Below, in pieces: positions 1-6,122 of a DNA stretch of 64,000 nt; position 1 is the stretch's first letter, and the number at the start of each line of letters is the position of its first letter. The notes under the pieces were generated by a model, which saw only the letters and a list, made by a program, of their open reading frames with translations, was not told the origin of the DNA and did no database searches. Source of the DNA: a bacterium (lineage in GTDB: Bacteria; UBA8248); contig CBDCRP010000002.1 of the NCBI GenBank assembly GCA_965221165.1, positions 192,001-256,000 on the forward strand, in the 5' to 3' direction. The translations under genes were made by a program, and so were the position numbers.

Positions 1-645
1 TCAGGAAATGCGCGCGCTCGTTTCCATGAAGCCACGCGAAAGATCGAAACGGGCCTGCGCAGTCGACCCCACCGTATCCTCTTCATCCACCAGGCGCCGC
101 AAGACCCTGACGGCCAGCCACGCGCCCAAAGCTCCCTGGGTCGCCACCGTGCGCGCTCCCCTTTCACGCGAGGCCGCACCCGGCCTCCCGAGTGCGGCGG
201 TTCCTTCGAGAATCTCACCCGCCTCACCTGCGGAGACGCCTTGTATGGTGAATCTTCCCGAAGGCTCGAATTTCTCGAAATCCGCAGATGCCTCATCTCC
301 CAACCAGACGAGCGCGTCGAAAACCTCCTCCTCGTCCAGGTAACGGGAAACCAGCGTGCAATCGGGATTCAAACTCCTTACGCCATCGCCCACACAAGCG
401 CCCAGGAAGGATGAAAGCGGCGATTCTTCCTTCAATCCATCGGCCCCATCCAGCGGACACCAGCCGACCCGCCCCACGCCCCCGGCGGCCAGATAGACCA
501 GGGCGACGAGGGCGGCGCTTTTCTCTTCTGCCGAAAACGCGATGAGCACGGAAGAAGCCAGGAGGCGCTCCTGGCCGATCCCTCCCACCCCGGGCAGAAG
601 AATGTGCCGGCTGTAGCGCTGAATCTGCTCTTCGCTCAAACCCAA
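1..645 (-). CDS. Degenerate ThiF/MoeB (E1-like) family protein
   Basis: N-terminus LSEEQIQRYSRHILLPGVGGIGQERLLASSVL is a typical MoeB/ThiF start, and YLAAGGVG and SLNPD are retained. No GxGxxG, SNLxRQ or CxxC motifs. Likely TTG start at 645 behind a GAGGAG RBS (the track ORF starts at 726). Stop TGA at 1-3. Confidence 0.75.
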   Translation of the reverse strand: MGLSEEQIQRYSRHILLPGVGGIGQERLLASSVLIAFSAEEKSAALVALVYLAAGGVGRVGWCPLDGADGLKEESPLSSFLGACVGDGVRSLNPDCTLVSRYLDEEEVFDALVWLGDEASADFEKFEPSGRFTIQGVSAGEAGEILEGTAALGRPGAASRERGARTVATQGALGAWLAVRVLRRLVDEEDTVGSTAQARFDLSRGFMETSARIS

Positions 646-679
646 GGGACGGTTCTCCTCTCGGGAGTATTGCGGGAGA

Positions 680-958
680 TTAGAGGCCGCCCGCGATGGC
701 CGGCACGATGGAGACCTCATCGCCATCGCTCACCGCCGTTCCCTCTCCCTGCAGGAAGCGGATGTCCTCCTGGTTCACATAAATGTTCACGAACCGGCGC
801 AGCTTGCCCTGCTCGTCGTAAAGGCGCTGGCGAATGCCCGCAAATTGCCGGTCGAGGTTTTCGAGCACTTCCTTGATATCCGCGCCCCCGATCTCCACGG
901 CGTCCTGCTGCTGGGTGAACTCCTGTAAAGGTGTCGGAATACGAACCGTTACCGCCAT
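680..958 (-). CDS. MoaD/ThiS/CysO-family ubiquitin-like sulfur carrier protein
   Basis: 92 aa. VTVRIPTPL start, LRRFVNIYVNQEDIRFL and C-terminal IVPAIAGG followed by one extra Leu. Confidence 0.9.
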   Translation of the reverse strand: MAVTVRIPTPLQEFTQQQDAVEIGGADIKEVLENLDRQFAGIRQRLYDEQGKLRRFVNIYVNQEDIRFLQGEGTAVSDGDEVSIVPAIAGGL

Positions 959-1014: not shown

Positions 1015-1974
1015 CTAATGAAATTGCTGCTCCAGACTATAATACCTCTCCCAGCCATCGGGAATGACGACCACCACGTTTTCCTCCGGACTCATCCGCC
1101 GCGCTACGCGCAGGGCCGCGCAAACGGCCGCGCCCGCCGAAATGCCTGCGGCCATGCCCTCCTCCCGGCTCAGGGCCTTGCTCATGTCGTAGGCGTCCGA
1201 ATCGCTCACCTGCGCCATTTCGTCGATGATCGCCCGGTTCAACACCCCGGGAATGAAGCCGGCGCCTATTCCCTGTATATGGTGCGGTCCCGGCTCCCCG
1301 CCCGAAAGAACGGGCGATGCGGCGGGCTCCACCCCCACGATGAGGGTTTCGGGGCTTCTCTCCTTCAGTACCTCGCCCACTCCCGTGATGGTGCCTCCCG
1401 TCCCCACGCCCGCCACGAAGGCGTCTATCGATTCCGCGCCCATGTCGCGCAAAATCTCGCGCGCCGTGGTCCTGCGGTGGATTTCCGGGTTGGCCGGGTT
1501 GTTGAACTGCTGGGGCATGAAATAGTCCGGATTTTCGGCCAATATGGCTTCCGCCTTGACGAGGGAGCCGTACATGCCGCCTTCGCTGGAGCTGAAGACC
1601 ACCTCCGCCCCATAGCCGGTGAGCAGGGAGTGCCGCTCGTGACTCATGCTCTTGCTGAGCACGATGATGGTCCTGTAGCCGCGTATGGCGCCGATGAGCG
1701 CCAAGCCGATCCCCGTGTTGCCGCTCGTAGGCTCGATGATCGTTCCGCCGGGCTTCAGGAGTCCGCGCCGCTCGCCGTCGAGCACCATGCTGAGCGCGAT
1801 GCGATCCTTCACGCTTCCGCCGGGATTATATTGCTCGAGTTTGGCGAACACGCGCGCGCCGGATGCGTCGGGCAGACGCTGCAACCGGACGAGGCTCGTG
1901 CCCCCTATGCGATCGATGAGCGAGGGAAGCGCCCTTAAAATCTGGGGCGGGCGACCCCGTGTGCCCAATGCCAT
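1015..1974 (-). CDS. cysK: Cysteine synthase A (PLP-dependent O-acetylserine sulfhydrylase)
   Basis: KLEQYNPGGSVKDR (PLP Lys), EPTSGNTG, QQFNNPANP, GVGTGGT and HHIQGIGAGF motifs. Confidence 0.9.
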   Translation of the reverse strand: MALGTRGRPPQILRALPSLIDRIGGTSLVRLQRLPDASGARVFAKLEQYNPGGSVKDRIALSMVLDGERRGLLKPGGTIIEPTSGNTGIGLALIGAIRGYRTIIVLSKSMSHERHSLLTGYGAEVVFSSSEGGMYGSLVKAEAILAENPDYFMPQQFNNPANPEIHRRTTAREILRDMGAESIDAFVAGVGTGGTITGVGEVLKERSPETLIVGVEPAASPVLSGGEPGPHHIQGIGAGFIPGVLNRAIIDEMAQVSDSDAYDMSKALSREEGMAAGISAGAAVCAALRVARRMSPEENVVVVIPDGWERYYSLEQQFH

Positions 1975-3086: not shown

Positions 3087-3494
3087 ATGAGTGATCACCA
3101 TAAACCCTTGCGCGTGCGGGAGAGCGAAGCCCTGAGCGGAGAGCTGCCCGTGCCCGGGGGGAGAAGCATGTTCCGGATTCTGCTGGATGAGGAGAGCGTG
3201 GGCGCCAAGCAGTTCGCCTTGCTCATCAACGAATTCGACCCGGGACTCACCTCCACCGCCCACAAGCACGACACCGAGGAACATGCCTTCTACATCATCA
3301 GCGGAACGGGGGTGATCGACATCGAGGGGGATAAGATATCGGTCGAGGCGGGCGACGCGGTTTTCGTGCCCCCCGGCAAGATGCACCAAATCACGAGCAC
3401 GGGTGACTCGCTGTTCAAATATGTGGTTTTATATTCGCCTCCGGGTCCCAATGTGGCGCTCAGGGAAAAAGGCGCCTATGGACTCGCTGAATGA
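3087..3494 (+). CDS. Cupin domain protein
   Basis: AHKHDTEEHAFYIISGTG and GDAVFVPPGKMHQI match the two cupin metal-binding motifs. AGGAG RBS. Confidence 0.85.
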   Translation: MSDHHKPLRVRESEALSGELPVPGGRSMFRILLDEESVGAKQFALLINEFDPGLTSTAHKHDTEEHAFYIISGTGVIDIEGDKISVEAGDAVFVPPGKMHQITSTGDSLFKYVVLYSPPGPNVALREKGAYGLAE

Positions 3495-3572
3495 TTCGGG
3501 TTTGATGCGCTGAATCGTTTTCATGGAATCGGTGTACCAGGGATAAACCAAATTCCTTATCGGGAAGAAAAA

Positions 3573-6122
3573 ATGACTACTGTACTTTCGTTTCAGGTAG
3601 TGCCCAGCATTCCTCCCGAACTGGGAGAACTCGAAGAAATCGCCGACAACATCGCCTTCGACTGGAACCATCGCGCGCGCGCGCTGTTCAGTAGGCTGGA
3701 CGAGACCCAGTGGGAAGATTGCCACTACAACCCCGTCACGATGCTGAAATCCGTCTCTCAGGAGCGGCTCGATGCGGCGGCGCGCGATGCGCATTTCCTC
3801 CGCGAGATGAAAAGCGTGGTCAAAGAGCTTCACGCATATCTCCACAAACCATCCTGGTACCAGAACCTGCCCGAGAGCGAAAAGAGCGAGAACCTCCGCA
3901 TCGCCTACTTCAGCATGGAATTCGGGCTCACGGAATCCGTGCCCAACTACTCGGGCGGCCTGGGCGTCCTCGCCGGCGATCACATGAAATCCGCGAGCGA
4001 CTTGGGACTGCCCCTCATCGGCGTCGGCCTCGCCTACAGCCAGGGATATTTTCGCCAACACCTAGGCCCCGACGGCTGGCAGCAGGAGCGCTACCCGGAC
4101 AACGATTTCCATCACACGCCGTTCCATCTCGAGCACGATGCGGACGGAGCGCCCATCACGGTGGAGGTCGACTACCCCGACGGCCTCCTCACTGCGCAAG
4201 TCTGGCACGTGCAGGTGGGCCGCAACCCCATCTACCTCCTGGACGCCAACGTTCCCGGAAATGCTCCCTCGCTACGCGAAATCACCCTGGCCCTCTACGG
4301 CGGGGACATGGAAACGCGGATTCGCCAGGAGATACTGCTCGGCATCGGCGGCGTAAGATTGCTCCACAAACTGAACCTCCCCCCCGTCGTCTGCCACATG
4401 AACGAGGGACATTCCGCCTTCCTGGCGCTCGAGAGAATCCGTTTTTCCATGGGAAAATTCGGCATCGACGCCGGCGCTGCCCGGGAATTGACTTCTGCGG
4501 GAAACGTTTTCACGACGCACACGCCCGTTCCTGCCGGCATCGACATTTTTCCGCCCGACATGATGGAAAAATACTTTCGAAAATACGCGCAATCCCTCTC
4601 CATGGACTGGGGCGACTTTCTGGGCCTGGGCCGGGTGAACCCCGGACAGGGGGATGAGCCTTTCAACATGGCCGTCCTCGCGCTGCGTCTTTCCTCGGCG
4701 GCGAACGGCGTCAGCAAACTGCATGGCGAGATTTCACGAAAGATGTGGCAATCCATGTGGCCGGAAGTCCCCGAGCAGGATATTCCCATCGACTCCATCA
4801 CGAACGGCGTCCACTTTCCCACCTGGGTATCGCCCGAGATGAAGGACTTGTTCGACAGGCATCTGGGCGGCGGCTGGGTGGATGAGACGGACAAGCCGGA
4901 GAAGTGGGAGAGAGTCGCCTCCATCCCGGCGAGCGAGCTCTGGAGCGCAAGGGAGAAAAGCCGCGAGCGGCTCATCGCGTTTTGCCGCGCGCATGCCCAC
5001 AAGCGGCCATTGGGAAGCGTTACCCACCCCAACGTCACCATGCTCCCCAACCCCAAAACCCTGACGATCGGATTCGCGAGACGTTTCGCCACCTACAAGC
5101 GCGCCACCCTTTTGCTCAAAAGGCCCGAACGCCTCGTTTCACTCCTCACGAACGCGGAAAAGCCCATTCAGATCATATTCGCCGGCAAAGCCCACCCGAG
5201 AGACATGGAGGGCAAGAGCTTCATCCGCGAACTCATCCACTTCGCCCGAAGGGAAAACGTGCAGGACAGGCTCGTATTCGTGGAAGATTACGACATCCAC
5301 GTCGCGCGGCAACTCGTGCAAGGGGTCGATTTGTGGCTCAACAATCCCCGCCGCCCGCAAGAAGCGAGTGGTACGAGCGGCATGAAGGCCGCCGCGAACG
5401 GCGCCCTGAATCTGAGCATCTTGGACGGCTGGTGGGCGGAGGGGTATGCGAGCCGCTTGGGGTGGGCCATCGGCGGCCTGGAGACCTACAACGACCCCGG
5501 CTACCAGGACGAGATGGAGAGCGAGAGCTTGTTCAACACCCTCGAACAAGCCGTGGTTCCGCTTTTCTATGAACGCAGCGAAGAGGGCATTCCATCCCGC
5601 TGGGTGGAGATGATCAAACACTCCCTGCAATCCCTGTGTCCCTATTTCAATACGAGCCGGATGGTGCGCGAATACGCCGAAAAATTCTATCTGCCCCTGG
5701 GGGCGCATCATGCGCGCCTCATGGCGGATGAGAGGGTGCCCGCGAAGGCGCTCTCCGAATGGAAGGAGCACGTGCGCCGCGCATGGCCCGGGGTGGAGAT
5801 CACCCAAATATCAATGGCGCAAAACGGCGTCGTTCCGTTGGGCGCAAAAATGCGGGTCGAGGCGGAGGTTTCGCTCGGAAGACTCTCGCCCGAAGAAGTT
5901 CGCCTCGAGATTTACGAGGGCGCCTGGAAGGAGGAGAAACTGTTGTCCGGCGAGATCATCTCCCCTATGGTTTTCACGGAAGACTTAGGGGGCGGCGCGT
6001 ACCGTTTTCAGGGCGAGATCGAATGCCGCAGACCGGGCATGCACGGCGTGTCGGTGCGCGCAGTGCCCCATCACCCGCATCTCATTCATCCGTTGAGTCT
6101 GCATCTCTTGACCTGGGGTTAG
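3573..6122 (+). CDS. glgP: Alpha-glucan (glycogen) phosphorylase
   Basis: YFSMEFG, YSGGLGVLAGD, HMNEGH, FTTHTPVPAG, FARRFATYKR and EASGTSGMK (PLP Lys). Confidence 0.95.
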   Translation: MTTVLSFQVVPSIPPELGELEEIADNIAFDWNHRARALFSRLDETQWEDCHYNPVTMLKSVSQERLDAAARDAHFLREMKSVVKELHAYLHKPSWYQNLPESEKSENLRIAYFSMEFGLTESVPNYSGGLGVLAGDHMKSASDLGLPLIGVGLAYSQGYFRQHLGPDGWQQERYPDNDFHHTPFHLEHDADGAPITVEVDYPDGLLTAQVWHVQVGRNPIYLLDANVPGNAPSLREITLALYGGDMETRIRQEILLGIGGVRLLHKLNLPPVVCHMNEGHSAFLALERIRFSMGKFGIDAGAARELTSAGNVFTTHTPVPAGIDIFPPDMMEKYFRKYAQSLSMDWGDFLGLGRVNPGQGDEPFNMAVLALRLSSAANGVSKLHGEISRKMWQSMWPEVPEQDIPIDSITNGVHFPTWVSPEMKDLFDRHLGGGWVDETDKPEKWERVASIPASELWSAREKSRERLIAFCRAHAHKRPLGSVTHPNVTMLPNPKTLTIGFARRFATYKRATLLLKRPERLVSLLTNAEKPIQIIFAGKAHPRDMEGKSFIRELIHFARRENVQDRLVFVEDYDIHVARQLVQGVDLWLNNPRRPQEASGTSGMKAAANGALNLSILDGWWAEGYASRLGWAIGGLETYNDPGYQDEMESESLFNTLEQAVVPLFYERSEEGIPSRWVEMIKHSLQSLCPYFNTSRMVREYAEKFYLPLGAHHARLMADERVPAKALSEWKEHVRRAWPGVEITQISMAQNGVVPLGAKMRVEAEVSLGRLSPEEVRLEIYEGAWKEEKLLSGEIISPMVFTEDLGGGAYRFQGEIECRRPGMHGVSVRAVPHHPHLIHPLSLHLLTWG

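What the first reader, a model, noticed from the sequence alone, without database searches (positions are those of the whole stretch)
1..645. Pseudo-E1: a ThiF/MoeB homolog with no adenylation site but an intact trans-acting Arg motif
Seen: the ORF is intact (about 214 aa, good RBS). The N-terminal RYSRHILL.GVG..GQERL segment is strongly conserved, but the GxGxxG loop is replaced by AFSAEEKS, and the DxD..SNLxRQ segment and Zn-binding CxxC pairs are absent. Known: in MoeB dimers the N-terminal Arg (E. coli R14) completes the ATP site of the other subunit. The heterodimeric eukaryotic E1s (APPBP1/UBA3, SAE1/SAE2) use an inactive adenylation subunit that donates this Arg. Inference: this may be a bacterial inactive E1 subunit that pairs with an active MoeB encoded elsewhere, possibly just left of the window, to activate the adjacent ubiquitin-like carrier. 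That would be a prokaryotic parallel of split E1s.
Basis: partly seen in the sequence, partly recalled or inferred. Interest (0 to 1): 0.72.

Follow-up and report, generated by a model that had tools for sequence, protein, structure and literature searches.

The report
Two-gene bacterial E1 with inactive subunit
This gene encodes a conserved, catalytically dead copy of the sulfur-carrier-activating enzyme MoeB that most likely pairs with a truncated active MoeB in the same operon, a bacterial counterpart of the two-subunit ubiquitin-type activating enzymes of eukaryotes.

Summary
Window 1-645 (minus strand) is an intact 214-aa gene, called pE1 here. It is a full-length homolog of MoeB/ThiF. 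It keeps the N-terminal RYSRH "arginine finger" helix but lacks the GxGxxG loop, the SNLxRQ segment and both CxxC pairs.

The operon continues left of the window as cysK-cysO-pE1-cysM-JAMM-MoeB-rrf2. That MoeB (tMoeB) keeps every catalytic motif but lacks exactly the N-terminal helix that pE1 retains.

- The seven-gene order recurs in 20 of 20 fetched Nitrospinota loci.
- A tMoeB ortholog is found in 29 of 30 pE1-bearing genomes and in 0 of 21 without pE1.
- In four relatives the operon is intact but lacks both genes.
- pE1 is under purifying selection (dN/dS about 0.3).
- A predicted pE1:tMoeB complex scores 0.91 against 0.00 for the best control. Similar dimers are already solved, so this may partly reflect memory of them.

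A second pairing of the same kind, a mini pseudo-E1 beside a truncated MoeB, occurs in 3 of 401 sampled Myxococcota genomes.

Best reading: an obligate heterodimeric activating enzyme for CysO with one active site. Binding and activity are not shown experimentally. It is a new variant of a known kind.

The parts
1..645 (-). pE1: a 214-aa pseudo-E1, an inactive MoeB/ThiF homolog. Start TTG 645-643, stop TGA 3-1.
   Evidence: ORF. (about 70 ortholog clusters). (32 invariant columns). (profile against PDB Uba4/ThiF/MoeB, E 4e-12 to 3e-8). (hhalign against tMoeB, probability 99.4%, 211 columns). (Foldseek top hits ThiF, Uba4, MoeB, SAE1, APPBP1).
655..659 (-). Shine-Dalgarno AGGAG, 9 nt upstream of the TTG start of pE1.
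   Evidence: Read directly from the sequence.
680..958 (-). CysO-type ubiquitin-like sulfur carrier, 92 aa. It ends in AIAGG plus one extra Leu.
   Evidence: Pfam ThiS, 2.4e-17. (end-to-end match to M. tuberculosis CysO 3dwg_C, E 3.3e-22). (GG followed by 1-3 variable residues in 31 of 32 loci).
1015..1974 (-). Cysteine synthase, CysK type, 319 aa. First gene of the operon.
   Evidence: PALP, 8.7e-78. (TIGR01139 cysK, 398 bits against a cut-off of 351).

Best explanation
pE1 is the non-catalytic subunit of a two-gene heterodimeric E1-like enzyme. It plays the role that the inactive adenylation domain plays in eukaryotic E1s. Its partner is tMoeB, an N-terminally truncated but otherwise complete MoeB encoded three genes downstream, outside the window at G000:C2:189709-190527.

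Proposed mechanism (inferred):
1. pE1 and tMoeB form a MoeB-like dimer with a single ATP site, located in tMoeB.
2. pE1's N-terminal helix (RYSRH, with R13 equivalent to MoeB Arg14 and ThiF Arg11) reaches across and completes that site, replacing the helix tMoeB has lost.
3. The JAMM protease trims the 1-3 residue cap after the Gly-Gly of the adjacent carrier CysO.
4. The dimer adenylates the exposed Gly-Gly.
5. The carrier is thiocarboxylated, used by the CysM-type synthase, and cysteine is released by the JAMM protease.

What is shown: homology, the motif pattern, conservation, synteny, co-occurrence and a passing structural model. What is inferred: physical heterodimerisation, the role of the Arg helix, and the substrate.
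For: Complementary anatomy:
- pE1 keeps the N-terminal helix and loses the P-loop, SNLxRQ and CxxC.
- tMoeB keeps GxGGxG, D..D..NLARQ, K, DGSDN and two CxxC pairs, but matches Pfam ThiF only from profile position 20 and E. coli MoeB only from residue 28.
- 25 of 25 tMoeB loci have no RYxRQ-like motif in the open frame upstream of the P-loop, and 25 of 25 pE1 have one.
- In alignment A2, 20 of 20 tMoeB orthologs lack the helix and 6 of 6 outgroup MoeBs have it.

Linkage:
- The seven-gene order recurs in 20 of 20 fetched loci and in the 4 loci with enough flank among the 6 full-length relatives found in the scan of public genome contigs.
- pE1 is in 30 of 51 Nitrospinota genomes.
- tMoeB orthologs (52% identity or more) are in 29 of those 30 and in 0 of the other 21.
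- The one exception, G022, has pE1 on a contig of about 3 kb.
- In G023, G034, G010 and G039 the operon is cysK-cysO-cysM-JAMM-rrf2, with both genes missing although they are not adjacent to each other. Only a rhodanese-MoeB type remains elsewhere in those genomes.

Selection:
- dN/dS for pE1 is 0.26-0.42 at dS 0.13-0.64.
- 15 of 32 invariant residues fall in the 56-residue predicted interface (Fisher p = 0.005).

Model:
- ipSAE is 0.91 (runs 0.92, 0.91, 0.91) against 0.00 for the best of 3 controls.
- That mark was reached by 116 of 157 solved complexes and 2 of 215 mismatched pairs.
- The runs agree in at least 90% of contacts, and partner pLDDT is at least 79.
- The interface includes pE1 residues 9-14, 16-18 and 20, and tMoeB residues 70-78, which hold the ATP-binding R76.

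Arginine equivalence: pE1 R13 aligns with ThiF Arg11 and MoeB Arg14. These are the trans-acting fingers named in PMC13139853 (passages).

Independent parallel: in Myxococcota, a roughly 130-aa mini pseudo-E1 with RYARH lies next to a MoeB that starts right at strand beta-1, in 3 of 3 loci.
Against: - No binding or activity data exist.
- The complex score may come from likeness to solved MoeB and ThiF homodimers and to SAE1/SAE2. My own alignments and riding ligands were also outside the tool's calibration.
- No homodimer models (tMoeB:tMoeB or pE1:pE1) could be run for comparison.
- The MoeB/ThiF arginine finger is reported as catalytically non-essential (PMC13139853, passages).
- One pE1 cluster has His instead of R13 (P0060; L129).
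- pE1 evolves 3-4 times faster than cysK, cysM, cysO and JAMM, whose dN/dS is 0.04-0.2.
- The pE1 monomer model is only moderate: pLDDT 69.3, with the conserved C-terminus below 50.
- Relatives without the pair keep cysO, cysM and JAMM. The pair is therefore accessory, and its substrate or benefit is inferred, not shown.
- tMoeB has no rhodanese domain, so the sulfur donor is unknown.
Confidence: 0.74

Rival explanations
1. pE1 does heterodimerise with tMoeB, but only as a structural or solubility partner, as yeast Tcd1 does for Tcd2. The Arg helix contributes little to catalysis.
For: The arginine fingers of MoeB, ThiF and Tcd1 are reported non-essential, and Tcd1 is needed for Tcd2 solubility (PMC13139853, passages). 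One pE1 cluster carries His at R13. The strongest predicted contacts are helix-to-helix, between pE1 168-178 and tMoeB 199-210, not in the N-terminal helix.
Against: The N-terminal 30 residues are the most conserved part of pE1. R10, Y11, S12, H14, L16, L17, P18, G21, G22, G24 and Q25 are invariant in 34 of 34 sequences. tMoeB has lost precisely this segment in 25 of 25 loci.
Confidence: 0.13
2. pE1 does not pair with tMoeB. It acts as an adaptor, chaperone or regulator for another component, such as CysO, CysM or the housekeeping rhodanese-MoeB, or as a sulfur-transfer protein replacing the missing rhodanese domain.
For: The genome encodes a full-length rhodanese-MoeB that could also dimerise with an E1 fold. 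pE1 sits between cysO and cysM. A Cys in the GWCPL segment is present in 28 of 34 sequences.
Against: Gain and loss of pE1 track tMoeB, not cysO or cysM, which persist without pE1. The Cys is not invariant. The complementary loss of the helix has no explanation under this reading.
Confidence: 0.08
3. pE1 is a decaying duplicate of MoeB, a young pseudogene without function.
For: It has lost all catalytic motifs and evolves faster than its neighbours.
Against: The frame is intact in all 30 pE1-bearing genomes. The one stop-codon flag, in G041, was the normal stop. dN/dS is well below 1. The family has 32 invariant columns across 39-100% identity, including a family-specific VGSTxxARFD motif. The start position is conserved and the window copy has an AGGAG ribosome-binding site.
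Confidence: 0.02

Closest known systems
Eukaryotic heterodimeric E1s: SAE1/SAE2 (SUMO) and NAE1(APPBP1)/UBA3 (NEDD8)
   Same: Two separate polypeptides of the MoeB/ThiF fold form one active site. One subunit has a dead nucleotide site. The pE1 model hits SAE1 (1y8q_A, E 4.8e-6) and APPBP1 (3dbr_E, 1r4m_A). tMoeB residue 31 aligns to SAE2 residue 14, so the catalytic subunit begins at the same point. That the inactive subunit supplies the Arg in these enzymes is partly from recall. The UBA1 equivalent (Arg57) appears in PMC12355090 (passages).
   Different: There is no catalytic-Cys domain, no ubiquitin-fold domain and no E2. The setting is a sulfur-carrier (cysteine) operon, not protein conjugation. 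The origin is almost certainly independent. pE1 is only 214 aa.
Bacterial BilD E1 of Bil antiviral operons (fused IAD-AAD-CYS)
   Same: It is a bacterial E1 with an inactive and an active adenylation domain forming a pseudo-dimer, with one key Arg (Arg9) supplied by the inactive domain (PMC10557695, passages).
   Different: BilD is a single polypeptide with a Cys domain and works with an E2 in phage defence. Here there are two genes separated by cysM and JAMM, there is no Cys domain, and the context is metabolic. The same paper states that other known bacterial E1-like proteins are homodimers.
Yeast Tcd1-Tcd2 (ThiF-family ct6A dehydratase heterodimer)
   Same: Paralogous ThiF-fold subunits pair up. 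The inactive one (Tcd1) supplies the arginine finger (Arg59), and the active one lacks a finger (PMC13139853, passages).
   Different: It is eukaryotic, membrane-anchored and acts on tRNA. Tcd1 keeps a nucleotide site but lacks one Arg. There is no ubiquitin-like carrier.
Mycobacterial CysO-CysM-Mec+-MoeZ cysteine pathway, and operon type 4c of Iyer et al. 2006
   Same: It has a CysO-type carrier (E 3.3e-22 to 3dwg_C), a CysM-like synthase and a JAB/JAMM peptidase in one operon. Operon type 4c combines ThiS/MoaD, E1, JAB and cysteine synthase (PMC1779556, passages).
   Different: There the E1 is one protein fused to a rhodanese domain. Here the operon's E1 is split into a dead and a truncated subunit, and neither has a rhodanese domain. 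CysO here also carries a 1-3 residue cap after the Gly-Gly.
E. coli MoeB and ThiF homodimers
   Same: The fold is the same. pE1's N-terminal helix motif is close to identical to that of ordinary MoeBs. tMoeB is 129 bits, E 2.6e-36, to 1jw9_B.
   Different: Those are symmetric, with two active sites, each subunit donating its own Arg helix to the other.

Membership tests
ThiF/MoeB E1-like adenylation-domain superfamily (as an active enzyme, Pfam PF00899) | E1-type Rossmann-like fold homologous to MoeB/ThiF | tested here: met
   hhalign of the pE1 profile against the tMoeB/MoeB profile gives probability 99.4%, E 4.2e-21, over 211 columns. Foldseek top hits are ThiF, Uba4 and MoeB with TM about 0.6.
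ThiF/MoeB E1-like adenylation-domain superfamily (as an active enzyme, Pfam PF00899) | Glycine-rich nucleotide-binding loop GxGxxG after strand beta-1 | tested here: not met
   The loop is replaced by AFSAEEKS, with three extra residues. It is absent in 24 of 25 loci. One clade has GPGGAG.
ThiF/MoeB E1-like adenylation-domain superfamily (as an active enzyme, Pfam PF00899) | ATP/Mg-binding residues: D..D..SNLxRQ, a Lys, and the DxxDN Asp | tested here: not met
   There are no counterparts in the profile alignment with tMoeB or in the family alignment.
ThiF/MoeB E1-like adenylation-domain superfamily (as an active enzyme, Pfam PF00899) | Two CxxC zinc-binding pairs | tested here: not met
   The pE1 sequence has no CxxC. 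tMoeB has both pairs.
ThiF/MoeB E1-like adenylation-domain superfamily (as an active enzyme, Pfam PF00899) | Score above the Pfam or NCBIfam curated cut-off | tested here: not met
   Pfam ThiF gives no hit at E <= 1. The best NCBIfam score is 42 bits against a cut-off of 633.
Inactive adenylation subunit of a heterodimeric E1 (functional class, as SAE1/NAE1) | E1 fold with a dead nucleotide site but a retained trans-acting N-terminal Arg | tested here: met
   R13 aligns with ThiF Arg11 and MoeB Arg14. It is present in 33 of 34 aligned sequences, and R10 in 34 of 34.
Inactive adenylation subunit of a heterodimeric E1 (functional class, as SAE1/NAE1) | A partner catalytic subunit that lacks its own Arg helix | tested here: met
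   25 of 25 tMoeB loci lack it. The Pfam ThiF match starts at profile position 20.
Inactive adenylation subunit of a heterodimeric E1 (functional class, as SAE1/NAE1) | Physical heterodimer with the catalytic subunit | tested here: inconclusive
   Model only: ipSAE 0.91 against a best control of 0.00. Similar complexes are solved, so the pass may be from memory. Co-occurrence is 29 of 30 against 0 of 21.
Inactive adenylation subunit of a heterodimeric E1 (functional class, as SAE1/NAE1) | Common descent with eukaryotic SAE1/NAE1 | not tested
   No phylogeny with eukaryotic subunits was made. The narrow distribution argues for an independent origin.
CysO-dependent cysteine biosynthesis (CysO/CysM/Mec+/MoeZ) | CysO-type carrier, CysM-type PLP synthase and JAMM hydrolase in one operon | tested here: met
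CysO-dependent cysteine biosynthesis (CysO/CysM/Mec+/MoeZ) | Activating enzyme of MoeZ type (MoeB fused to a rhodanese domain) | tested here: not met
   tMoeB has only the ThiF domain. The rhodanese-MoeB lies elsewhere in the genome.

The most novel reading that the evidence does not exclude
The Nitrospinota pE1 and the Myxococcota mini pseudo-E1 may descend from one old bacterial lineage of inactive E1 subunits. That lineage would have re-paired with different truncated MoeBs. Two-subunit, single-site E1 architecture would then have arisen in sulfur-carrier metabolism, independently of and possibly before the eukaryotic E1s. The dead pocket may also have been re-used as a docking or regulatory site. 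The tree groups the two pseudo-subunit families together (SH-aLRT 100), while their catalytic partners are not sister groups. Long-branch attraction is an equally good explanation for that grouping.
Probability: 0.15. Interest if true: 0.8.

Novelty: new variant of a known kind. Interest (0 to 1): 0.66.

Why it matters
The step from symmetric MoeB/ThiF homodimers to asymmetric E1s, with one dead and one live adenylation domain, is central to how ubiquitin-type activation evolved. So far it has been seen only in eukaryotes and in the fused BilD of phage-defence operons.

This pair is a minimal natural case of that step. It consists of two small soluble-type proteins with complementary losses (helix against active site), sitting in an ordinary cysteine-synthesis operon. 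Close relatives lack both genes. A second pairing with the same pattern occurs in another phylum.

This makes three questions directly testable in a simple bacterial system:
- What does asymmetry buy?
- Is the trans helix or its Arg needed?
- How does an obligate heterodimer arise by duplication and complementary degeneration?

It also corrects annotation. pE1 is currently labelled "hypothetical protein" or, wrongly, "adenylyltransferase/sulfurtransferase".

Tried and rejected
Literature:
- Burroughs et al. 2009 (E1-like superfamily) could not be read. The DOI, and a PMC id I recalled from memory, are not held. That paper may describe inactive bacterial E1-like proteins I could not check.
- Six full-text searches found no description of a two-gene bacterial MoeB or E1 heterodimer, and nothing linking Nitrospina with MoeB. 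Subscription journals are not covered.

Other tools:
- The protein Atlas was closed or did not hold the sequences.
- Earlier findings of this scan had nothing near this place.

Phylogeny:
- The tree of 37 rows does not place pE1 next to tMoeB, so an in-operon duplication origin is neither shown nor excluded. pE1 sits on a branch of 1.86 changes per column.
- I trimmed long-ORF N-terminal extensions of three Myxococcota MoeB-like ORFs and two mini ORFs before building the tree.

Readings considered and rejected:
- The 241-aa reading from ATG 726. It overlaps cysO and is not the conserved start.
- An intein or insertion splitting one MoeB gene. pE1 is a full-length homolog, not a fragment.
- A catalytic Cys in pE1. 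It is present in only 28 of 34 sequences.
- Pseudogenisation in G041. The "1 TGA inside" flag was the normal stop.

Ambiguous results:
- Two pE1-negative genomes had partial 48%-identity MoeB matches (G009, and a G040 fragment at a contig end). I counted them as not orthologous, but they remain ambiguous.

Full report
**Observation.** On the minus strand of window 1-645 there is an intact ORF. It runs from TTG (645-643) to TGA (3-1) and encodes 214 aa. An AGGAG sits 9 nt upstream at 655-659. A longer reading from ATG 726 overlaps the upstream gene. The public gene call (P0002) and the homologous start in 25 of 25 related loci favour the 214-aa form. I call the product pE1.

NCBIfam models for MoeB, MoeZ, UbaA and ThiF match only the first 60-70 residues. 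The best is E 5.3e-11 at 42 bits, against a cut-off of 633. Pfam ThiF does not match at E <= 1. In alignments to solved Uba4 and ThiF, the glycine loop is replaced by AFSAEEKS, three residues longer. There is no SNLxRQ segment and no CxxC pair.

**pE1 is a full-length but dead E1 domain.**
- A profile of 34 family members hits solved Uba4, ThiF and MoeB over positions 2-196 (E 4e-12 to 3e-8).
- Profile-profile comparison with the operon's MoeB family gives probability 99.4%, E 4.2e-21, over 211 columns.
- An AlphaFold2 model (mean pLDDT 69.3, pTM 0.72; the C-terminal 26 residues are below 50) has a Rossmann-like fold.
- Its best structural matches are ThiF (E 2.4e-8, TM 0.60), Uba4 and MoeB. 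They also include the inactive subunits SAE1 (1y8q_A) and APPBP1 (3dbr_E, 1r4m_A).

**The family is conserved and narrow.**
- The homology search returned 214 proteins at E <= 1e-3. The first 70 clusters (P0002-P0071) are relatives at 39-100% identity, nearly all 198-234 aa. Where named, they are "hypothetical protein" from Nitrospinae, or "adenylyltransferase/sulfurtransferase".
- In an alignment of 34 there are 32 invariant columns. Eighteen of them lie in the first 58 residues (RYS.H.LLP..GG.GQ..LL, YL...G.G). A family-specific C-terminal motif, VGSTxxARFD, is also invariant.
- R13 aligns with ThiF Arg11 and MoeB Arg14, the trans-acting fingers named in PMC13139853 (passages). It is present in 33 of 34 sequences, and one cluster has His. 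R10 is invariant.
- A search of 1.84 billion representatives with a profile of the divergent C-terminal two-thirds found 15 proteins at E <= 1e-3. About 10 are real family members or fragments. The others are long repetitive proteins.
- Among 51 Nitrospinota species genomes, pE1 is in 30, counting the window's own. All 30 belong to one family-level group, and none of the 9 genomes from the other three families has it.

**Selection.** Nei-Gojobori dN/dS for pE1 is 0.26-0.42 in comparisons with dS 0.13-0.64. The values are 0.04-0.2 for cysK, cysO, cysM and JAMM, and 0.16-0.26 for tMoeB. So pE1 is constrained, but less tightly than its neighbours. No frameshifted copy was seen. The one flag (G041, "1 TGA") was the normal stop codon.

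**Context.** The window begins at G000:C2:192001. Reading leftward gives one minus-strand operon:
- cysK-type synthase (window 1974-1015);
- a CysO-type carrier (958-680);
- pE1 (645-1);
- a CysM-type synthase (C2:191968-191030);
- a Prok-JAB/JAMM peptidase (191018-190524; Pfam 3e-20);
- a ThiF-family protein, tMoeB (190527-189709);
- an Rrf2 regulator.

The carrier aligns end to end with M. tuberculosis CysO (3dwg_C, E 3.3e-22).

tMoeB has GxGGLG, D..D..NLARQ, the Lys, DGSDN and two CxxC pairs. However, it matches Pfam ThiF only from profile position 20 and E. coli MoeB only from residue 28 (E 2.6e-36). In orthologs the protein starts about 10 residues before strand beta-1. The window genome's 24 extra N-terminal residues are not conserved.

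In alignment A2, 20 of 20 tMoeB orthologs lack the RYxRQ helix and 6 of 6 outgroup MoeBs have it. Across 25 loci, 0 of 25 tMoeB frames contain an RYxRQ-like motif upstream of the P-loop, and 25 of 25 pE1 do. The losses are therefore complementary.

The genome also has an ordinary full-length MoeB with an N-terminal rhodanese domain elsewhere (433 aa, ThiF profile 1-238).

**Co-occurrence.**
- The seven-gene order is identical in 20 of 20 fetched loci. It is also identical in the 4 of 6 loci from the public-genome scan that have enough flank. The other two end at contig edges.
- tMoeB orthologs (52% identity or more) are found in 29 of the 30 pE1-bearing genomes. The exception, G022, has pE1 on a contig of about 3 kb.
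- None of the 21 pE1-negative genomes has a tMoeB ortholog. Their best matches are 36-48% identical and of the long rhodanese-MoeB type. Two partial 48% matches (G009, G040) are ambiguous, and one genome has no match.
- In G023 and G034 (same genus, 100% and 99% complete, single contigs), and in G010 and G039, the operon reads cysK-cysO-cysM-JAMM-rrf2. Both pE1 and tMoeB are absent, although they occupy two separate positions in the operon. Only the rhodanese-MoeB type is present elsewhere in those genomes.

Related genomes are not independent samples. Even so, presence and absence split within two genera (20 of 22 and 2 of 4), so more than one joint gain or loss is needed.

**Model of the pair.** pE1 plus tMoeB (residues 25-258), with ATP and Mg riding along, scored ipSAE 0.91 (runs 0.92, 0.91, 0.91). 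The best of 3 controls scored 0.00. That mark was reached by 116 of 157 solved complexes and 2 of 215 mismatched pairs. The runs agree in at least 90% of contacts, and partner pLDDT is at least 79.

The interface includes pE1 residues 6, 9-14, 16-18 and 20 (the Arg helix), 163-183 and 196-209. On tMoeB it includes residues 70-78, which hold the ATP-binding Arg76, and 191-239. Fifteen of pE1's 32 invariant residues lie in the 56-residue interface (Fisher p = 0.005).

Two limits apply. MoeB and ThiF homodimers and SAE1/SAE2 are solved, so this pass shows likeness to them and not that these two proteins bind. My own alignments and the ligands were also outside the tool's calibration.

**Mechanism.** The best-supported reading is an obligate heterodimeric E1-like enzyme with one active site, in tMoeB. 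pE1 supplies the N-terminal helix and Arg in trans and half of the dimer interface. The substrate is most likely the adjacent CysO.

In 31 of 32 loci examined, CysO ends in GG followed by 1-3 variable residues (L, R, LY, VG, V, D, ARA). This holds with or without pE1. The carrier therefore probably needs JAMM trimming before activation.

Thiocarboxylation, condensation by the CysM-type synthase and release of cysteine by the JAMM protein would follow, as in the mycobacterial pathway. That part rests on established knowledge of the pathway and on PMC1779556 (passages).

Neither subunit has a rhodanese domain, so the sulfur donor is open. Relatives manage without the pair, so it is an accessory, dedicated activator, and its advantage is unknown.

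**Caveat on the Arg.** PMC13139853 (passages) states that the fingers of MoeB (Arg14) and ThiF (Arg11) are not essential. It also reports that in yeast Tcd1-Tcd2 the inactive Tcd1 supplies a non-essential finger while being required for Tcd2 solubility. One pE1 cluster has His at this position. The helix and the interface may thus matter more than the guanidinium group.

**Comparison with known systems.** Chambers et al. (PMC10557695, passages) state that known bacterial E1-like proteins form homodimers, except BilD. BilD fuses an inactive and an active adenylation domain, with Arg9 donated by the inactive one. Reviews repeat this.

The present pair has the same logic as SAE1/SAE2, NAE1/UBA3, BilD and Tcd1/Tcd2. 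It differs in being two separate small genes in a bacterial sulfur-carrier operon, without a Cys domain or an E2. Six full-text searches found no description of such a pair. Burroughs et al. 2009 could not be read.

**A second family.** Weak hits (P0092-P0106 and P0121, 132-143 aa, no Pfam match) form a mini pseudo-E1 family. It has RYARHILLP..GG.GQ, no glycine loop, YLAAGGVG and a C-terminal Trp-rich helix.

It occurs in 3 of 401 sampled Myxococcota genomes. In all three loci it lies next to a MoeB-like gene that starts directly at strand beta-1. In L159 the ThiF profile match starts at position 22, from residue 2 of the protein. A JAMM gene follows in all three, a PP-loop ATPase in two, and a GG-ended carrier is present in one.

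A quick tree groups mini and pE1 together (SH-aLRT 100) on a long branch. Their catalytic partners are not sister groups. This may be common descent or long-branch attraction.

**Verdict.** It is a new variant of a known kind, and it is worth a bench test.

Noticed in passing
L157 (G303:C46:65000-78000), L158 (G343:C1:10500-23500), L159 (G168:C45:3500-16500), e.g. L159 5392-6042 and 6039-6422: A second split-E1 family occurs in Myxococcota. A roughly 130-aa mini pseudo-E1 (RYARH helix, no glycine loop, no Pfam hit) lies next to a MoeB-like gene that starts right at strand beta-1. A JAMM peptidase follows, and in two loci a PP-loop ATPase. The family was found in 3 of 401 sampled genomes.
   Followed up: partly
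window 680-958 (-) and the orthologs in L005-L010, L115-L134, L141-L145: The CysO-type carrier always ends in AIAGG followed by 1-3 variable residues (L, R, LY, VG, V, D, ARA), except one locus with an 11-residue tail. It is therefore probably made as a capped precursor that needs JAMM trimming. The cap is present whether or not pE1/tMoeB are.
   Followed up: partly
L129 (G046:C96:12100-21200), pE1 at 3396-4058; protein P0060: One pE1 clade, about 40% identical to the window's copy, reads RYSHH (His in place of the finger Arg) and has GPGGAG where others have no glycine loop. Several members of this clade still carry a precomputed Pfam ThiF hit. It may be a less degenerate form of the family.
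   Followed up: no
proteins P0164 (388 aa) and P0169 (393 aa): Two tMoeB relatives are recorded with both Rrf2 and ThiF Pfam domains. These may be gene-call fusions of tMoeB with the downstream Rrf2 regulator, whose frames abut or overlap, or they may be real fusions.
   Followed up: no
G030:C8:829567-830037 and G030:C6:36561-37031: One genome has two copies of pE1 and two tMoeB orthologs on different contigs. Its contamination estimate is 16%, so this may be two strains in one bin rather than a duplication.
   Followed up: no
L002 1006-2307 (G000:C3, around 917354-918655): The genome's other ThiF-family gene has the rhodanese domain at the N-terminus (rhodanese, then full MoeB, 433 aa). From recall, this is the reverse of the MoeZ/Uba4 domain order.
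   Followed up: no
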